Shown: positions 16,597-46,478 of the stretch, one piece after another | How positions within the stretch are numbered: the first letter of the stretch is position 1 | Layout of the letters: every line of letters starts with the position of its first letter | Source of the DNA: Escherichia phage PHB12 | Reading direction: 5' to 3' (one strand) | Sequence record: MK524178.1 | DNA: 64,000 nt | Made by a program: the position numbers and the translations under genes | Notes under the pieces: model-generated | Seen by the model: the letters and a program-made list of their open reading frames with translations, nothing else | Told to the model about the DNA's origin: nothing | Databases searched by the model: none

Positions 16597-19500
16597 ATGG
16601 CTACTTTAAAACAAATACAATTTAAAAGAAGCAAAACTGCAGGAGCACGTCCTGCCGCTTCAGTATTAGCCGAAGGTGAATTGGCTATAAATTTAAAAGA
16701 CCGCGTACTTTTTACTAAAGATGACCAAGGAAATATCATTGATCTGGGTTTTGCTAAAGGCGGTAGCATTGACGGGAATGTTATTCATATAGGAAATTAT
16801 AATCAAACTGGTGATTATACTTTAAATGGCACTTTCACTCAGACAGGTAATTTTAATTTAACTGGTATTGCTCGAGTAACTCGTGATATTATTGCCGCCG
16901 GGCAGATTATGACTGAAGGCGGTGAACTTATTACAAAAAGTTCAGGTACAGCACATGTTCGTTTTTTCGATGGCAATAGCCGCGAACGTGGCATTATCTT
17001 TTCGCCAAATAATGCTGGAGCGACCACTCAGGTAGTTAATATTCGCGTACAAGATTATGCCGCTGATAGCGAAAGCATTTATGCGTTTTCAGGCAACGGT
17101 GTATTTTCTTCACCTGAAGTATCGGCACGGAAATCTATTTCGTCTCCACAAATTCTGACCGATAAAGTTATTACAGATGGGAAGAAGACGGGCGATTATG
17201 ATATATCTTCATTATCAAATAACACTCCATTGGCAGAAAGCGAAACGGCTATTAACCACCTCCGTGTTATGCGAAATGCTGTAGGAGCAGGTATTTTCCA
17301 CGAAGTTAATGTTAATGACGGAATAACCTGGTATTCCGGAGATGGACTTGACACTTATCTTTGGTCGTTTAACTGGGCCGGTGGATTGAAAGCCGGTCAT
17401 TCTATTTCTGTAGGTCTTCCAGGCGGCCCTAAAGGATATTCTGAGTTAGGAACGGCCTCAATTGCTCTTGGTGATAATGATACCGGATTAAAATGGTATC
17501 AAGATGGTTATTTCTATGTAGTAAACAATGGTACGAGAACTTTCCTTTATAGTCCTGAATCAACCGTAAGCCTTAGAAAAATGGTTATGGGTTATTCTGT
17601 AAATGGCAATGATTTGACTACTCCTCCGACTGAAAACTATGCTTTGGCTACTGTTGTTACTTACCATGATAATAATGCGTATGGTGACGGTCAGACTCTT
17701 TTAGGATATTACCAAGGCGGTAATTATCATCACTATTTCCGTGGTAAAGGTACTACAAATATTAATACTCACGGCGGTTTATTAGTCACTCCTGGTAATA
17801 TTGACGTTATTGGTGGTTCTGTTAATATTGATGGTCGTAATAATGCTTCTACGCTGATGTTTAGAGGTAACACAACTGGTAGCAGTTCAGTTGATAATAT
17901 GACTATCAACGTTTGGGGTAACACCTTTAGTACAGTAGATGGTTTTCGTAAAAACGTGATGGAAATATCTGATGCTATTGGTTGGATGCATTATATTCAG
18001 CGCAATAAAGATAATACCATTGAGGCTGTATTAAATGGACAACAAACTATTAACGAAAATCTTGTTGTTAAAAAAGATATTTTGGTTGATAGAGCGGTCC
18101 ATACCGCAGGCGAAATTACTACAAGTGCTGTTAACGGGCTCCGCATCTGGAACAACGATTATGGCGCCATTTTTAGACGTTCGGAAGGAAGTCTTCATAT
18201 TATTCCTACTGCATTCGGTGAAGGCATGTCCGGTGATATTGGCCCACTTCGCCCGTTTAGTTTGGCTTTAGATACTGGTAAAGTTACTATTCCAGATTTA
18301 CAATCAAGTTACAATACGTTTGCTGCTAACGGTTATATTAAATTTGTTGGTCATGGAGCGGGTGCCGGTGGATATGATATTCAATATGCCCAAGCGGCTC
18401 CTATTTTCCAGGAAATTGATGATGATGCTATAAGCAAATATTATCCTATTGTTAAACAGAAGTTTTTAAACGGTAAATCCGTTTGGTCTTTAGGTACTGA
18501 AATTAATTCGGGTACATTTGTTTTACACCATATCAAAGAAGATGGATCACAAGGACATACATCTCGTTTTAATCAAGACGGTACTGTTAACTTCCCGGAT
18601 AACGTTCTGGTCGGCGGTGGCGAAGCTGCTATTGCTCGTAATGGTAATATTTTCTCGGATATCTGGAAAACGTTTACTTCAGCAGGAGACATTACAAATA
18701 TTCGCGATGCAATAGCTACTCGTGTTGCTAAAGAAGGCGATACGATGACCGGCACTCTTTGGATTAATAAAGATGCTGCTGGAATAGTTCTTAATCCTCC
18801 TTTGTCTAGTGATTCATCATTTATTCGTTCTGATACGGCCGGGGCCAATAATTGGTATATTGGTAAAGGCGGTGCCGACAATGGTCTAGGTTTTTACAGT
18901 TACATTACACAAGGCGGTGTATACATAACAAATACCGGTGAAATATCGCTTTCTCCTCAAGGACAAGGAACATTTAATTTTAATAGAGACCGCCTTTATA
19001 TAAATGCTAGTCAATGGGTTGCACATAAATCTGGCGCTTGGGGCGACCAATGGGGCTTAGAAGCTCCTATATTTGTGGATTTTGGTGGTGTCGGTAATGA
19101 TAGTTATTATCCGATTATCAAAGGAAAATCTGGTATTACCAATGAAGGATATATATCGGGTGTAGATTTCGGTATGCGTCGTATTACTAATACATGGGCC
19201 CAAGCTATTATCCGTGTTGGTAACCAGGAAAGCGAGTCGAACCCGCAAGCTATCTATGAATTCCACTCTAATGGCACTTTTTATGCTCCGAGCTTACTTA
19301 AGAGTAACAGAGTATCGGCTGGTGGTGGTGACCCAGCATGGGGCAGTCCTTGTATTGTATTAGGTGACAATGATACCGGATTTCTTTGGGAAGCAGATGG
19401 TATTTTCAACGCATATGCAAACGGCCAAGGCGTATTCAGTTTTAGAGCTGGTCTCGCACAAACGTTCGGTAACGTTAACTTCCACTGTAACGCCGGTATG

Positions 19501-20718: not shown

Positions 20719-21378
20719 ATGGCAGCACCAAAAGTATCATTTTCGCCTAGTGATATTTTATTTGGGTTGCTAGACCGCATTTTCAAAGATAACGCCTCTG
20801 GAAATATTCTTATTTCAAGAGTTGCTGTTGTAGTTCTTTTGTTCCTAATGGCACTAATATGGTACAAAGGGAATATTTTTATGGATTATTACGTGAGGTC
20901 GAAATATGATACTTACACAGAAGTAATTCAAAAAGAAAGAAATACACGATTTGAATCTGCGGCTTTAGAACAACTACAAATAGTCCACGTCACATCAAGG
21001 GCGGATTTTAGTTCGGTGTATTCTTTCAGACCTAAAAATCTAAATTATTTCGTCGACCTTATTGCGTATGAAGGTAAGTTACCTAGCACAGTAACTGAAA
21101 AATCTATGGGAGGATTTCCTGTTGATAAAACGACAGCAGAATATTCGGTCCATTTAAGTGGACTTCACTTTACTTCTAAAACAGATTTTGCTTTCTTACC
21201 TACCAAATCAAAAACTCCGGAACTGGCGTATATGTATAGTTGTCCTTACTTCAATTTGGATAACATATATGCTGGAACTGTTTCTATGTATTGGTATAAG
21301 GGGTCGGATGTGTTAAATGAAGAACGCTTGGCTGCAATATGCAACCAAGCAGCAAGGATATTAGGGCGGGCTAAATAA
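20719..21378 (+). CDS. t: Holin
   Basis: Start at ATG 20719 (MAAPKVSFSPSDILFGLLDRIFKDNASG...) matches T4 holin T; single N-terminal TM segment; about 219 aa. Confidence 0.9.
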   Translation: MAAPKVSFSPSDILFGLLDRIFKDNASGNILISRVAVVVLLFLMALIWYKGNIFMDYYVRSKYDTYTEVIQKERNTRFESAALEQLQIVHVTSRADFSSVYSFRPKNLNYFVDLIAYEGKLPSTVTEKSMGGFPVDKTTAEYSVHLSGLHFTSKTDFAFLPTKSKTPELAYMYSCPYFNLDNIYAGTVSMYWYKGSDVLNEERLAAICNQAARILGRAK

Positions 21379-43860: not shown

Positions 43861-44097
43861 TTAACCACTTACTGGTGTAGGGGTAAACATTGCAGCATTC
43901 TTAGTTTTCCAAGTTGCTGCATCAGAAACTACAGTAGAATATGCTGCCTTTTCTGATGGAAAGATTTGGTAATGAGAATCTGCAATCCGATGTTCGTTTG
44001 AATAAATCTCAAACGGTACAGAAACTTCCATACCTTTAACTTCTTTACCTTCACCGGCAGGATGCGTAAAGGTTTTGATGTTTACATAACCACCCAT
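43861..44097 (-). CDS. soc: Small outer capsid protein
   Basis: 78 aa; GYVNIKTF...SHYQIFPSEKAAYSTV matches T4 Soc; late promoter upstream. Confidence 0.9.
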   Translation of the reverse strand: MGGYVNIKTFTHPAGEGKEVKGMEVSVPFEIYSNEHRIADSHYQIFPSEKAAYSTVVSDAATWKTKNAAMFTPTPVSG

Positions 44098-44128
44098 AAT
44101 TAACTCCTTTGTTGTTTAATTACAGGTG

Positions 44129-44136
44129 TATTTATA
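44129..44136 (-). promoter_or_regulatory. T4-type late promoter (TATAAATA) for soc
   Basis: Minus-strand TATAAATA about 32 nt upstream of soc ATG. Confidence 0.65.
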
Positions 44137-44142
44137 ACTTAA

Positions 44143-44664
44143 TCAGTAACCATTATCCTGGCGTTCAAAGTTGTGTTGGTTTTTCAAGTAGTAAAGTTTA
44201 AAGATTTCTTCAGCGGAAAGACCCAGACCTTGGAACATATTCAGAACGAAATGCAGAATATCAATCATCTCGAATTTAATTTCAAGCTGGTCTTCAGGAG
44301 ACAGTTCATCGATACGACGATTTCGATATTCAGCATGTTGAGCTTTCCAAGGCTTCCATACAGAGCTAGCGGCTTTTTCACCATTGCTCATACCACCAAG
44401 TGAAGTCAGCAGTTCACGGAATTCATCATCAATATAATCTTTTTGATTACGCAGCCAATCAACAACATCGCCAGCAGTGGCCAATTCATCAGGATGTTTG
44501 TTATGTTCAGGCTTGTCATTTGCCAGACGAACCTGTAAAGATTTCTGCATATCAAGCATTACCTGCAGAGGGTCTTTATCTTCGTGAATCAGAGCATTAA
44601 AATAAGCTTCTTCTGCTTTATCAACACCAGAAATAAGTTGTGAACATTCGTTAAAGTGTGCCAT
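44143..44664 (-). CDS. 56: dCTP pyrophosphatase gp56 (MazG-like)
   Basis: Start at ATG 44664 (MAHFNECSQLISG...) with SD AAAGGAAAA; T4 gp56-like; function matches hmC DNA metabolism. Confidence 0.9.
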   Translation of the reverse strand: MAHFNECSQLISGVDKAEEAYFNALIHEDKDPLQVMLDMQKSLQVRLANDKPEHNKHPDELATAGDVVDWLRNQKDYIDDEFRELLTSLGGMSNGEKAASSVWKPWKAQHAEYRNRRIDELSPEDQLEIKFEMIDILHFVLNMFQGLGLSAEEIFKLYYLKNQHNFERQDNGY

Positions 44665-44754
44665 TATTTTTCCTTTCAATTCAGTATAAGAGAAGTTAAT
44701 TCTAACATTAATTTTATAAAGCGTAATAAATAATAAGGTAACTAAGGAGATATT

Positions 44755-44952
44755 ATGTTTAAACTTCCATCGTTAATCAACGCTATTAAAGGCAATAAAA
44801 AGAAAACTGCTATCGCTGCAATAGTTGTAGGTGGCATTATTTCATGGAACTTCGGGATTGCACCATTGTTAGTTGCTAATGGTATTATAGTTCCTTCTGT
44901 TCCATTGGATACTGTAGTTGATTTGGCCTTTGCTATTATAGGGCTTGTTTAA
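44755..44952 (+). CDS. Putative small membrane protein (65 aa) on the opposite strand
   Basis: Strong SD AAGGAG 7 nt before ATG; hydrophobic AIAAIVVGGIISWNFGIAPLLVANGIIVPSV...LAFAIIGLV; overlaps 3' end of gene 61 by 4 nt. Confidence 0.45.
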   Translation: MFKLPSLINAIKGNKKKTAIAAIVVGGIISWNFGIAPLLVANGIIVPSVPLDTVVDLAFAIIGLV

Positions 44953-45971
44953 ATCTTAGAATAACGAGATAATCTCATTTTAGCATGCAACCCACTTGAA
45001 ATATTCTGTTTCATATATTCTAAAATTTCTTGTGGTGTTGCATTTTCTTTCATTACCATATCATTCACATCCTTTGATCTCCATGGAGCTCGGTCCCAGA
45101 ACATAACACGTTCGCCTGCATCAACTAATCGCTTCATGCGAGCTATAGTATCCGGATGCCTAGGTTCATTATCCATTACCCATACCCGACGTTCTTTAAA
45201 TGGTGCCACATCTAAATCTATTGAGCCGCCTGTAATAGCGATTGCATTGGGTATGAATAAACTATCAATAGGGCCTTCCATTACCCAGACGTCTCCTTCC
45301 TTAACACGTTCAACACCATAAATTTTTGTTGCAGACTCAAACGCTTTAATAGTGATATATTTCTGAGGAGCATCTTTACGAAGTGCACGTCCTTGGAATG
45401 ACTCGGCCTTCCCGTCTTTATTAAAAATAGGAATCACTAAACGTGGTTCGGGAATCTCTTTCTTATACGTACCAGGTTGAATCTTGTTGACCAATTTAGG
45501 CCATTCTAATGTGAACCATAATCTGTTCCATGATTCTTTAGGAATGCATCGAGACTTAACATATTTCACAATAGGATGCTCTTCAGGCAGCTTGTCCAGA
45601 CGAGAACAAGACGGCAAAGAATTTATAGTCTTTTTCTCTGGCTCCGGCTTAGCTTCAGGAACCTTTTCAATCTTTGGTTCCATTCTAGCTTTTTCTTTAC
45701 GAACTTCCATTAGATACTCGCGATAAAGCTCTTCATCATACTCTTTTAAGTATCCGGAAATTGTATTGTGGTATTGACAATTATAGCAATGTACATTACC
45801 AGGAGTACCACCATAATACCATCCGCGGGCTTTCATTGCATCTGTCTGAGAGTCACCACAAACTGGACATCGAAATGTTAATTTAAACGTGCTTGAATTA
45901 TTGATTTGTCTAAAACGAGGTAGGTGAGAAAACGCACGATAAGCAAATTCATTATCTATCCATTCAGCCAT
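44949..45971 (-). CDS. 61: DNA primase gp61
   Basis: 340 aa; N-terminal zinc ribbon CPVCGDS...CYNCQYH and Toprim region; T4 gp61-like. Confidence 0.95.
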   Translation of the reverse strand: MAEWIDNEFAYRAFSHLPRFRQINNSSTFKLTFRCPVCGDSQTDAMKARGWYYGGTPGNVHCYNCQYHNTISGYLKEYDEELYREYLMEVRKEKARMEPKIEKVPEAKPEPEKKTINSLPSCSRLDKLPEEHPIVKYVKSRCIPKESWNRLWFTLEWPKLVNKIQPGTYKKEIPEPRLVIPIFNKDGKAESFQGRALRKDAPQKYITIKAFESATKIYGVERVKEGDVWVMEGPIDSLFIPNAIAITGGSIDLDVAPFKERRVWVMDNEPRHPDTIARMKRLVDAGERVMFWDRAPWRSKDVNDMVMKENATPQEILEYMKQNISSGLHAKMRLSRYSKI

Positions 45972-46010
45972 AGTATTCTCCAGAGGCCTTAAATTAATAA
46001 GGCCATCATA

Positions 46011-46478
46011 TCACAACTTATTAATATTTACTTTAATTCGCTTTCTTTTCTTGGAAGGAATTTGTTCTGGACCTTTATTTACGACTGCACCTGTAGTTGT
46101 TCCTGATGCAATAGCTTGAGGACTACCGCCTGAATCACCAGCAACCATATCCTCAAATAAAGGGAGTTCTTTAAATATTTCTTTCTGTTGTTCTTCCGTA
46201 ATGTTATAGCGTGAAGCTACAGCACTCCAGGCAGACATCATTGAGGCCATTCCATTAAGACCTGGAACAGTGCTCATCATTCGCTTCATTGAACGAACTG
46301 AAGCATGAAAAGGTGTATACGCCGCTTTCTCTTCGGGAGTAGAAGGACGTTTAAGAACACTTCCACGTTCATCGATGATTTTGGCTTCGTATGCTTTCCA
46401 TTCGGTAAAAGGTTTTTGCATTAGTCGAATAAACTTATATGCATAAACAGAATCTATTGCAGTGTTAATAATACCCAT
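46011..46478 (-). CDS. Hypothetical protein (61.1 position)
   Basis: Start at ATG 46478 (MGIINTAIDSV...) preceded by SD AGGAGGTA. Confidence 0.45.
   Translation of the reverse strand: MGIINTAIDSVYAYKFIRLMQKPFTEWKAYEAKIIDERGSVLKRPSTPEEKAAYTPFHASVRSMKRMMSTVPGLNGMASMMSAWSAVASRYNITEEQQKEIFKELPLFEDMVAGDSGGSPQAIASGTTTGAVVNKGPEQIPSKKRKRIKVNINKL

What the first reader, a model, noticed from the sequence alone, without database searches (positions are those of the whole stretch)
44755..44952. Opposite-strand small membrane-protein gene wedged between genes 56 and 61
A 65-aa plus-strand ORF with a strong SD (AAGGAG, 7-nt spacing) encodes a very hydrophobic peptide and overlaps the 3' end of primase gene 61 by 4 nt, in a region otherwise transcribed entirely from the minus strand. 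It could be a genuine small membrane protein (for example a late-expressed envelope-targeting peptide) or an antisense regulatory unit for 56/61.
Basis: seen in the sequence. Interest (0 to 1): 0.45.

Follow-up and report, generated by a model that had tools for sequence, protein, structure and literature searches.

The report
Conserved late small membrane-protein gene
The 65-codon plus-strand ORF between dCTPase gene 56 and primase gene 61 is a real, already annotated gene found in T-even phages of several genera; it encodes a small membrane protein, is probably transcribed late, and has no known function.

Summary
ORF 44755-44952 (+) encodes 65 aa, has an AAGGAG ribosome-binding site, is very hydrophobic, and overlaps the stop codon of convergent primase gene 61 by 4 nt.

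It is a real gene. The window is a Mosigvirus (RB69-like T-even phage). The ORF is RB69ORF029w, matches PHROG 2024 over its full length, and is 52% identical to a 66-aa T4 ORF. That ORF is named dam.1 in the T4T record but is not annotated in the T4 reference NC_000866.

Orthologues sit in the same position against gene 61 in six named Tevenvirinae genera plus one unclassified Klebsiella phage. They are under purifying selection: dN/dS is 0.09-0.36 within clades, and synonymous sites are saturated between clades.

Every lineage has a T4 late-promoter-like motif 12-22 nt before the ATG (AATAAATA here, perfect TATAAATA in one phage). I therefore infer gp55-dependent late transcription.

The predicted protein has a Lys-rich N-terminus, one long transmembrane helix and a short acidic C-terminal helix.

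The antisense-regulator idea is not supported as the conserved role, and the "holin" labels on some relatives are unsupported. Function is unknown. The gene is already known and of modest interest.

The parts
44725..44732 (+). Predicted gp55-type late promoter, AATAAATA, the A(-13) variant of TATAAATA
   Evidence: The window holds only 8 WATAAATA, against 18+-4 in shuffles. Five of them directly precede a ribosome-binding site plus ORF, and the other four lead gp34, gp36, holin t and soc. An equivalent motif lies 12-22 nt before the ATG in all 9 loci examined. A(-13) is the commonest variant among listed T4 late promoters, 9 of 50 (PMC2988020). Function is inferred; no RNA data were available.
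44738..44738 (+). Predicted late transcription start (+1), giving a 17-nt leader
   Evidence: Inferred from the rule that the motif occupies -13 to -6 (PMC1524935). Not mapped experimentally.
44744..44749 (+). Shine-Dalgarno sequence AAGGAG, 5 nt before the ATG
   Evidence: Read from the sequence. AGGAG(G), or GAGG in KMI13, is conserved at the same place in every lineage.
44755..44952 (+). CDS of a 65-aa small membrane protein, orthologue of RB69ORF029w and T4T dam.1 (PHROG 2024)
44949..44952. 4-nt overlap of the two convergent stop codons (TTAA)
   Evidence: Seen. The same overlap occurs in T4, RB69, CkP1, dhabil and kv_tblp2.
44949..45971 (-). Gene 61, DNA primase (convergent right neighbour)
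   Evidence: phrog_47, E=1.2e-101; annotated as primase in relatives.
44143..44664 (-). Gene 56, dCTPase / NTP pyrophosphohydrolase (divergent left neighbour)
   Evidence: phrog_173, E=1.6e-45; annotated in relatives.
44692..44732 (-). Predicted MotA-type middle promoter for gene 56, back-to-back with the late promoter. GCTTTA lies at 44722..44717, then 12 nt, then TAGAAT at 44704..44699.
   Evidence: Sequence read. It corresponds to RB69 'Pm:16038', score 21.6, in the supplement of PMC1524935.

Best explanation
This is a genuine protein-coding gene, the Mosigvirus orthologue of RB69ORF029w and T4 dam.1 (PHROG 2024).

**Transcription (inferred).** Early and middle T-even transcripts all run counterclockwise, which is the minus strand here. 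This plus-strand gene is therefore most likely expressed only late, from its own gp55/gp33/gp45-dependent promoter AATAAATA at 44725-44732. The predicted start is near 44738, giving a 17-nt leader that carries a strong ribosome-binding site.

**Protein (predicted).** The product is a 65-aa inner-membrane protein.
- The N-terminus is Lys-rich and amphipathic (five Lys, no acidic residue) and is predicted to stay in the cytoplasm.
- One long helix, about residues 15-41, spans the membrane. It carries the invariant Trp31-Asn32 and Pro37.
- A loop with invariant Gly43 and Pro47 follows.
- A short amphipathic helix (51-62) after an always-acidic residue 52 faces the periplasmic side or folds back against the membrane.

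**Function (my most speculative step).** I expect it acts late in infection at the cell envelope, by self-association or by binding a host or phage membrane protein through the conserved polar Trp-Asn face. Possible effects are on lysis timing, lysis inhibition or another membrane-linked late step.

**Status of each step.** Shown: gene reality, conservation, synteny and hydrophobicity. Inferred: late timing, topology and membrane location. Guessed: the envelope or lysis-related role.
For: **Coding and conserved**
- Full-length PHROG 2024 match, E=1.4e-26.
- tblastn finds it in 692 phage records, 685 of them at 80% coverage or more. The T4-type query finds 698 records, 691 at that coverage.
- A profile search returns 119 clusters, nearly all 56-74 aa (a few shorter, probably truncated), on contigs up to about 175 kb.
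- Within-clade dN/dS is 0.09-0.36. Between clades pS is about 0.6-0.8 (saturated) against pN of about 0.35.
- Variable sites by codon position 1:2:3 are 19:4:34, pooled over three clades.

**Synteny**
- It is always convergent with, and next to, primase gene 61. This holds in Tequatrovirus, Mosigvirus, Gaprivervirus, Dhakavirus, Karamvirus, Jiaodavirus and the unclassified phage kv_tblp2.
- The left neighbour varies: 56, dam or other ORFs.

**Late promoter**
- NATAAATA, or the TA-to-AT variant, lies 12-22 nt before the ATG in all 9 loci. kv_tblp2 has a perfect TATAAATA.
- The background frequency of ATAAATA is 2.2e-4 per nt.
- WATAAATA is depleted in the window, 8 against 18+-4 expected. The other four copies that precede an ORF lead gp34, gp36, holin t and soc.
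- The literature reports A(-13) at 9 of 50 listed T4 late promoters, that all early and middle transcripts share one polarity, and that late transcripts have either polarity (PMC2988020). The -13 T is poorly conserved in RB69 (PMC1524935).

**Membrane protein**
- GRAVY is +1.24, with five Lys at the N-terminus and two Asp at the C-terminus.
- A TM segment at 21-41 was already predicted for RB69ORF029w (PMC1524935 supplement).
- The AlphaFold2 model has pLDDT 82 with helices at 3-11, 15-41 and 51-62.
- W31, N32, P37, G43, P47 and G63 are invariant, and residue 52 is always acidic.
Against: - I found no transcript, ribosome-profiling, proteomic or genetic data for this gene or its T4 orthologue. 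T4 omics work used NC_000866, which does not annotate it.
- The 2006 HMM scan of RB69 did not list a late promoter here.
- The T4 motif is GATAAATA, and G at -13 is not among the common variants.
- No similarity to any characterised protein was found: Pfam, NCBIfam and PADLOC, PDB, BFVD fold search, and a phmmer scan of 1.8 billion representatives. The proposed envelope role therefore rests only on predicted location and timing.
- Frameshifted copies in two laboratory T4 derivatives suggest the gene is dispensable in culture, if they are not sequencing errors.
Confidence: 0.75

Rival explanations
1. Antisense regulatory unit. The functional product would be the plus-strand RNA. By converging on gene 61, and on any 61-to-56 read-through mRNA, it would down-regulate primase or dCTPase expression late in infection. 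The ORF would be incidental.
For: - No terminator-like structure follows the ORF in this window or in T4, so a plus-strand transcript would run antisense into gene 61.
- The ORF body is antisense to the 284-nt 61-56 spacer that read-through mRNA would cross.
- T4 is known to transcribe both strands at several sites at different times (PMC2988020).
Against: - Selection is on the protein. Synonymous sites are saturated between clades while the amino-acid sequence, length and frame are kept.
- A strong ribosome-binding site is conserved everywhere.
- In CJ20 a hairpin of -23.2 kcal/mol followed by U5 lies between the ORF and gene 61. In KMI13 a GC hairpin of -12.2 kcal/mol does the same. Antisense overlap with gene 61 is therefore not conserved.
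- The left-hand neighbour differs between lineages.
- No Rfam family matches.
Confidence: 0.1
2. A holin, pinholin or antiholin-type lysis protein, as some database records label relatives.
For: - It is small, membrane-embedded and probably late-expressed.
- One UniRef entry (OE5505) and one GenBank record (EAWsc9) call relatives 'holin'.
Against: - It matches no holin family in Pfam, PHROGs or NCBIfam.
- The C-terminus is hydrophobic (…AIIGLV), not the charged hydrophilic tail typical of holins.
- It is not next to an endolysin or lysis cassette; it lies between replication genes.
- The phage has a canonical T-type holin elsewhere, at 20722-21378 (phrog_860, E=4e-101).
- The 'holin' names appear alongside clearly wrong names for other members, such as 'dCTP pyrophosphatase' and 'DNA packaging ATPase'. 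They look like automatic label transfer.
Confidence: 0.08
3. Spurious ORF. On this view it is an open frame that arose by chance in AT-rich spacer DNA and was then propagated by automatic annotation.
For: Chance antisense ORFs of 60-80 aa occur in the same neighbourhood. No expression data exist.
Against: - The frame, length, ribosome-binding site and key residues are conserved across lineages as low as about 20% identical.
- dN/dS is well below 1 and codon position 2 is nearly invariant.
- Only 2 of about 700 records carry frameshifts, and both are laboratory derivatives.
Confidence: 0.02

Closest known systems
RB69ORF029w (NP_861719) and T4T dam.1 (ADJ39749); PHROG 2024
   Same: It is 97% identical to RB69ORF029w and 52% identical to T4 dam.1. 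It has the same length, the same position convergent with gene 61 with the same TTAA stop overlap, the same upstream ATAAATA motif and ribosome-binding site, and the same predicted TM segment.
   Different: Nothing substantive differs. This copy has Asn42 where RB69 and T4 have His42. None of these orthologues has an assigned function.
Canonical T4 late genes embedded in early regions, such as soc
   Same: It is a short gene with its own TATAAATA-type promoter and short leader, set among early and middle genes. soc lies about 600 bp away with a perfect TATAAATA at 44129-44136.
   Different: soc is on the minus strand and encodes a soluble capsid decoration protein with mapped function. This gene is on the plus strand, has the A(-13) promoter variant, and encodes a membrane protein of unknown role.
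Phage holins and antiholins (T4 T and RI; class II holins and pinholins)
   Same: It is a small, late, inner-membrane phage protein.
   Different: There is no sequence or profile similarity, the C-terminus is hydrophobic rather than charged, the gene is outside any lysis cassette, and a canonical T holin is present elsewhere.
Small bacterial membrane regulators (AcrZ, MgrB and MgtS type)
   Same: From my own knowledge, it resembles them in size class and in having a single TM helix with a conserved polar face that could dock onto a larger membrane protein.
   Different: This is analogy only. No homology was detected and no partner is known.

Membership tests
PHROG 2024 / RB69ORF029w / T4 dam.1 family | Full-length sequence match to the family profile | tested here: met
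   phrog_2024, E=1.4e-26, residues 1-65 against profile positions 1-65 of 65. 97% identity to RB69ORF029w.
PHROG 2024 / RB69ORF029w / T4 dam.1 family | Position convergent with and next to primase gene 61 | tested here: met
   Window. Same arrangement in six named genera plus kv_tblp2.
PHROG 2024 / RB69ORF029w / T4 dam.1 family | Invariant residues W31, N32, P37, G43, P47 and G63, plus an acidic residue at 52 | tested here: met
   Alignment A3 of nine sequences from six named genera plus kv_tblp2.
T4-type gp55-dependent late gene | TATAAATA-type motif placed so that transcription starts just upstream of the ribosome-binding site | tested here: met
   AATAAATA at 44725-44732, 22 nt before the ATG. 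The motif is conserved in all lineages. A(-13) is a listed T4 variant.
T4-type gp55-dependent late gene | Orientation opposite to early and middle transcription | tested here: met
   The ORF is on the plus strand while early and middle genes 56, 61, 61.1 and sp are on the minus strand. The polarity rule is from PMC2988020.
T4-type gp55-dependent late gene | RNA 5' end at the promoter, appearing late and dependent on gp55, gp33 and gp45 | not testable with these tools
   No RNA data were accessible. The published T4 time course was quantified on NC_000866, which lacks this gene.
Holins | At least one transmembrane domain | tested here: met
   Hydropathy, AlphaFold2 helix 15-41 and a published TM prediction at 21-41.
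Holins | Hydrophilic, highly charged C-terminal tail | tested here: not met
   The C-terminus is …DLAFAIIGLV with no basic residue after position 17.
Holins | Sequence or profile membership in a known holin family | tested here: not met
   No Pfam or NCBIfam hit at E<=1. The only PHROG hit is the unknown-function family 2024.
Holins | Location in a lysis cassette, or being the phage's only holin candidate | tested here: not met
   It lies between replication genes 56 and 61. A T-type holin is present at 20722-21378 (phrog_860, E=4e-101).
Holins | Timed, lethal membrane permeabilisation | not testable with these tools
   This requires an expression experiment.
cis-antisense RNA regulator of genes 61/56 | Conservation at the RNA or nucleotide level rather than in a reading frame | tested here: not met
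   Synonymous sites are saturated between clades while the protein is conserved. The codon-position pattern is 19:4:34.
cis-antisense RNA regulator of genes 61/56 | Conserved transcriptional overlap with the target gene | tested here: not met
   Hairpins separate the ORF from gene 61 in CJ20 (-23.2 kcal/mol, z=-7.4, followed by U5) and in KMI13 (-12.2 kcal/mol). The window and T4 have none, so overlap is lineage-specific.

The most novel reading that the evidence does not exclude
A small late membrane protein is conserved in all enterobacterial T-even genera examined yet missing from the T4 reference annotation, so it is invisible to T4 genetics and omics. It could be an unrecognised player in a classic T4 process at the inner membrane. 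One example would be a transmembrane partner of holin T in lysis timing or lysis inhibition. Another would be a factor in membrane-associated head assembly. The evidence does not exclude this, and it does not specifically support it either.
Probability: 0.15. Interest if true: 0.55.

Novelty: already known. Interest (0 to 1): 0.28.

Why it matters
The gene itself is ordinary and already annotated in hundreds of genomes. Three points give it modest value.

1. The best-studied T-even reference, T4 NC_000866, leaves its orthologue unannotated. Expression and fitness studies built on that record cannot report it.
2. The conserved ATAAATA motif and plus-strand orientation make a clear, cheaply testable prediction that it is a late gene embedded in an early region.
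3. A 65-aa membrane protein kept under purifying selection in six named genera presumably does something at the envelope late in infection. The players there (T, RI, RIII, spanins) are thought to be well known.

Tried and rejected
**Searches for a characterised relative (all negative)**
- Pfam, NCBIfam and PADLOC.
- PDB profile search: only weak chance hits, E>=0.25.
- phmmer against 1.8 billion representatives: only family members plus three low-complexity TM hits.
- Profile search of 5.8 billion clusters: only small proteins, nearly all 56-74 aa, on T4-like contigs.
- Foldseek against BFVD: only the protein's own family.
- Rfam scan of 44400-45200: nothing.

**Literature (no functional data found)**
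- Searches for RB69ORF029w, dam.1, T4 ribosome profiling, T4 transcriptome/proteome and CRISPRi-ART (which also surfaced the HIDEN-SEQ preprint) gave nothing on this gene.
- Miller et al. 2003 (PMC150520) is not held, so I could not check whether the T4 GATAAATA site is in the published late-promoter list.

**Other points**
- I submitted the single protein rather than an alignment to the one-shot representative search. The later profile search compensated.
- The sigma-70 promoter and terminator scan of 44000-46200 gave fewer promoter-like sites than the shuffles and no terminators. I rejected a sigma-70 early promoter for the ORF.
- I considered a two-TM hairpin. The C-terminal hydrophobic segment is only about 12-15 residues and contains two Asp, so a single TM helix plus a surface or re-entrant helix fits better.

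Full report
**1. Observation**

The plus strand carries an ORF from ATG 44755 to TAA 44950-44952, encoding 65 aa. AAGGAG lies at 44744-44749, followed by 5 nt (ATATT) and then the ATG.

The TAA overlaps the stop codon of the minus-strand 340-aa ORF 44949-45971 by 4 nt (TTAA). That ORF is DNA primase (phrog_47, E=1.2e-101). The minus-strand ORF to the left, 44143-44664, is the gene 56 NTP pyrophosphohydrolase (phrog_173, E=1.6e-45).

The peptide has GRAVY +1.24. It carries five Lys in the first 17 residues and two Asp near the C-terminus.

**2. Genome and gene identity**

The 56-61 segment is 97-98% identical to many Mosigvirus (RB69-like) phages, including PTK and HX01. The ORF is annotated there as a hypothetical protein. 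In RB69 it is RB69ORF029w. It matches PHROG 2024 (unknown function) end to end, E=1.4e-26.

tblastn finds it in 692 phage records, and 685 of those cover at least 80% of the query.

T4 holds a 66-aa orthologue that is 52% identical, with the same TTAA overlap with gene 61. This orthologue is not annotated in the T4 reference NC_000866, where 17626-17934 is blank. It is named dam.1 in the T4T record HM137666.

Nolan et al. 2006 listed RB69ORF029w among ORFs lacking a T4 match and predicted a TM segment at residues 21-41 (PMC1524935 supplement).

**3. Evidence that it is a real gene**

*Synteny.* More distant orthologues (18-43% identity) occupy the same slot, on the opposite strand to and next to primase. 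These are Gaprivervirus CJ20, Karamvirus CkP1, Jiaodavirus KMI13, Dhakavirus dhabil and the unclassified Klebsiella phage kv_tblp2. The left neighbour changes between lineages: 56, dam or other ORFs.

*Family size.* A profile search of 5.8 billion protein clusters returned 119 clusters. Nearly all are 56-74 aa (a few shorter, probably truncated), on contigs up to about 175 kb, and none has a Pfam domain.

*Selection.*
- Within-clade dN/dS is 0.09-0.36.
- Between clades, synonymous differences are saturated (pS about 0.6-0.8) while pN is about 0.35.
- Variable sites by codon position 1:2:3, pooled over three clades, are 19:4:34.

*Conserved residues.* W31, N32, P37, G43, P47 and G63 are invariant across all lineages examined, and residue 52 is always Asp or Glu.

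*Disrupted copies.* Only two records carry frameshifts. Both are laboratory T4 derivatives, T4_ev240 and mutant clone T4_583L. If these are real, the gene is dispensable in culture.

A chance ORF is effectively excluded.

**4. Expression: inferred late**

According to Geiduschek and Kassavetis (PMC2988020):
- All early and middle T4 transcripts share one polarity, while late transcripts have either.
- The late promoter is the 8-bp TATAAATA box.
- Of 50 listed sites, 32 are perfect and 9 have A at -13. One of the two exceptions that are not single deviations is a TA-to-AT change.

Nolan et al. place the box at -13 to -6. They report that the -13 T is poorly conserved (A or T) in RB69 and other relatives (PMC1524935).

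In the window, AATAAATA lies at 44725-44732, 22 nt before the ATG. That predicts a start near 44738 and a 17-nt leader containing the ribosome-binding site.

The motif is rare here. There are 8 WATAAATA on both strands of 64 kb, against 18.0+-4.0 in dinucleotide shuffles. Five of the eight lie directly before a ribosome-binding site plus ORF. The other four lead gp34, gp36, the T holin and soc, which are canonical late genes.

An equivalent motif lies 12-22 nt before the ATG in every lineage, although the surrounding sequence is not alignable:

| Lineage | Motif |
|---|---|
| This window (Mosigvirus) | AATAAATA |
| T4 and L015 | GATAAATA |
| CJ20 and L010 | CATAAATA |
| KMI13 | CATAAATA |
| dhabil | AATAAATA |
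| kv_tblp2 | TATAAATA (perfect) |
| CkP1 | ATTAAATA (the TA-to-AT variant) |

The background frequency of ATAAATA in all sequence held is 2.2e-4 per nt.

There are three caveats. The 2006 HMM scan did not call a late promoter here. G or C at -13 is not a common variant. I found no RNA data. The published T4 transcriptome/proteome time course used the NC_000866 annotation, so it could not report this gene.

**5. The divergent promoter region**

On the minus strand, GCTTTA (44722..44717), a 12-nt spacer and TAGAAT (44704..44699) form a MotA-type middle promoter for gene 56. It corresponds to RB69 "Pm:16038", score 21.6, one of the highest-scoring RB69 middle promoters in the Nolan supplement. 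The 90-bp spacer between gene 56 and the ORF therefore appears to hold a middle promoter and a late promoter back to back.

**6. The protein**

AlphaFold2 on an 18-sequence alignment gave mean pLDDT 82, with helices at 3-11, 15-41 and 51-62 and a loop at 42-50.

The positive-inside rule (five Lys at the N-terminus, acidic residues only at the C-terminus) predicts an N-in, C-out orientation. The last hydrophobic stretch is too short and too acidic to be a second membrane span. It is more likely a surface or re-entrant helix.

The invariant Trp-Asn pair inside the TM helix suggests a polar helix-helix contact, either self-association or docking to a partner. This is inference.

No relative with a known function or structure was found by any of the methods listed in "Tried and rejected".

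**7. Rival explanations**

*Antisense regulator.* In this phage and in T4 no terminator follows the ORF. A late transcript would therefore run antisense into gene 61, and an incidental effect is possible. However, selection is clearly on the protein.

In CJ20 a hairpin of -23.2 kcal/mol (z=-7.4) followed by U5 lies between the ORF and gene 61. In KMI13 a GC hairpin of -12.2 kcal/mol does the same. The overlap with gene 61 is therefore not a conserved feature.

*Holin.* A few records carry this label. The same family also carries the labels "dCTP pyrophosphatase" and "DNA packaging ATPase", so the names look like automatic transfer.

The defining holin features tested here are mostly not met. 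There is no family match, the C-terminus is hydrophobic, the gene is not in a lysis cassette, and a canonical T holin is present.

**8. Verdict**

This is a genuine, already annotated gene. It is conserved across the Tevenvirinae genera examined, encodes a small membrane protein, is very probably late-expressed, and has no known function.

The antisense alternative does not hold as the conserved role.

Novelty: already known. The modest points of interest are the gap in the T4 reference annotation and the testable late-promoter prediction.

Noticed in passing
window 1-64000, both strands: The late-promoter word WATAAATA is under-represented: 8 copies against 18.0+-4.0 in dinucleotide-preserving shuffles, and all 100 shuffles had at least 8. 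This is consistent with selection against stray late promoters. Five of the 8 copies precede real genes (gp34, gp36, holin t, soc and the ORF studied).
   Followed up: partly
window 44692-44732 (-): A MotA-type middle promoter for gene 56 lies here: GCTTTA at 44722..44717, 12 nt, then TAGAAT at 44704..44699. It sits back-to-back with the plus-strand AATAAATA and equals RB69 Pm:16038 (score 21.6) in the Nolan et al. 2006 supplement.
   Followed up: partly
L003 (T4 NC_000866) 2627-2935, record 17626-17934: The T4 reference record leaves a 309-bp gap between dam and gene 61 unannotated, although it holds the 66-aa orthologue (dam.1 in T4T HM137666). T4 omics analyses that count features from NC_000866 therefore miss this gene.
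   Followed up: yes
L018 1974-2174 (dhabil_90); P0118, P0092, P0032; H159: Family members carry clearly wrong or unsupported product names in public records: 'dCTP pyrophosphatase', 'DNA packaging ATPase', 'Holin' and 'holin family protein'.
   Followed up: partly
L020 about 1483-1608 (T4_ev240); L021 about 1201-1387 (T4 mutant clone 583L): Two laboratory T4 derivatives carry frameshifts in dam.1, a 1-nt deletion in AATAAGAAA and a 2-nt deletion. These are either sequencing errors or evidence that the gene is dispensable in culture.
   Followed up: partly
window 44878-44880 (codon 42): There is a His42/Asn42 polymorphism within Mosigvirus. The window, PTK and L009 have A-N-G. RB69, HX01 and L008 have A-H-G, and His also predominates in the other genera examined (Dhakavirus dhabil and kv_tblp2 have Gln).
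   Followed up: no
L007 2750-2800 (CJ20): A very stable hairpin (-23.2 kcal/mol, z=-7.4) followed by U5 lies in the 118-nt spacer between the ORF and gene 61. It is a likely terminator for the converging genes and is absent in Mosigvirus and T4.
   Followed up: partly
L001 2215-2412 and 3557-3634 (HX01 RefSeq gp169, gp168, gp164): Three tiny plus-strand CDSs (25-37 aa) are annotated in the HX01 RefSeq record in this early region. One overlaps the start of gene 56. They are not annotated in RB69 or PTK and are probably spurious.
   Followed up: no
window 44129-44136 (-) and 43861-44097 (-): soc, a late gene (phrog_1715, E=2.7e-41), lies on the minus strand about 600 bp to the left, with a perfect TATAAATA 31 nt before its ATG. 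The region is therefore not purely early/middle even on the minus strand.
   Followed up: partly
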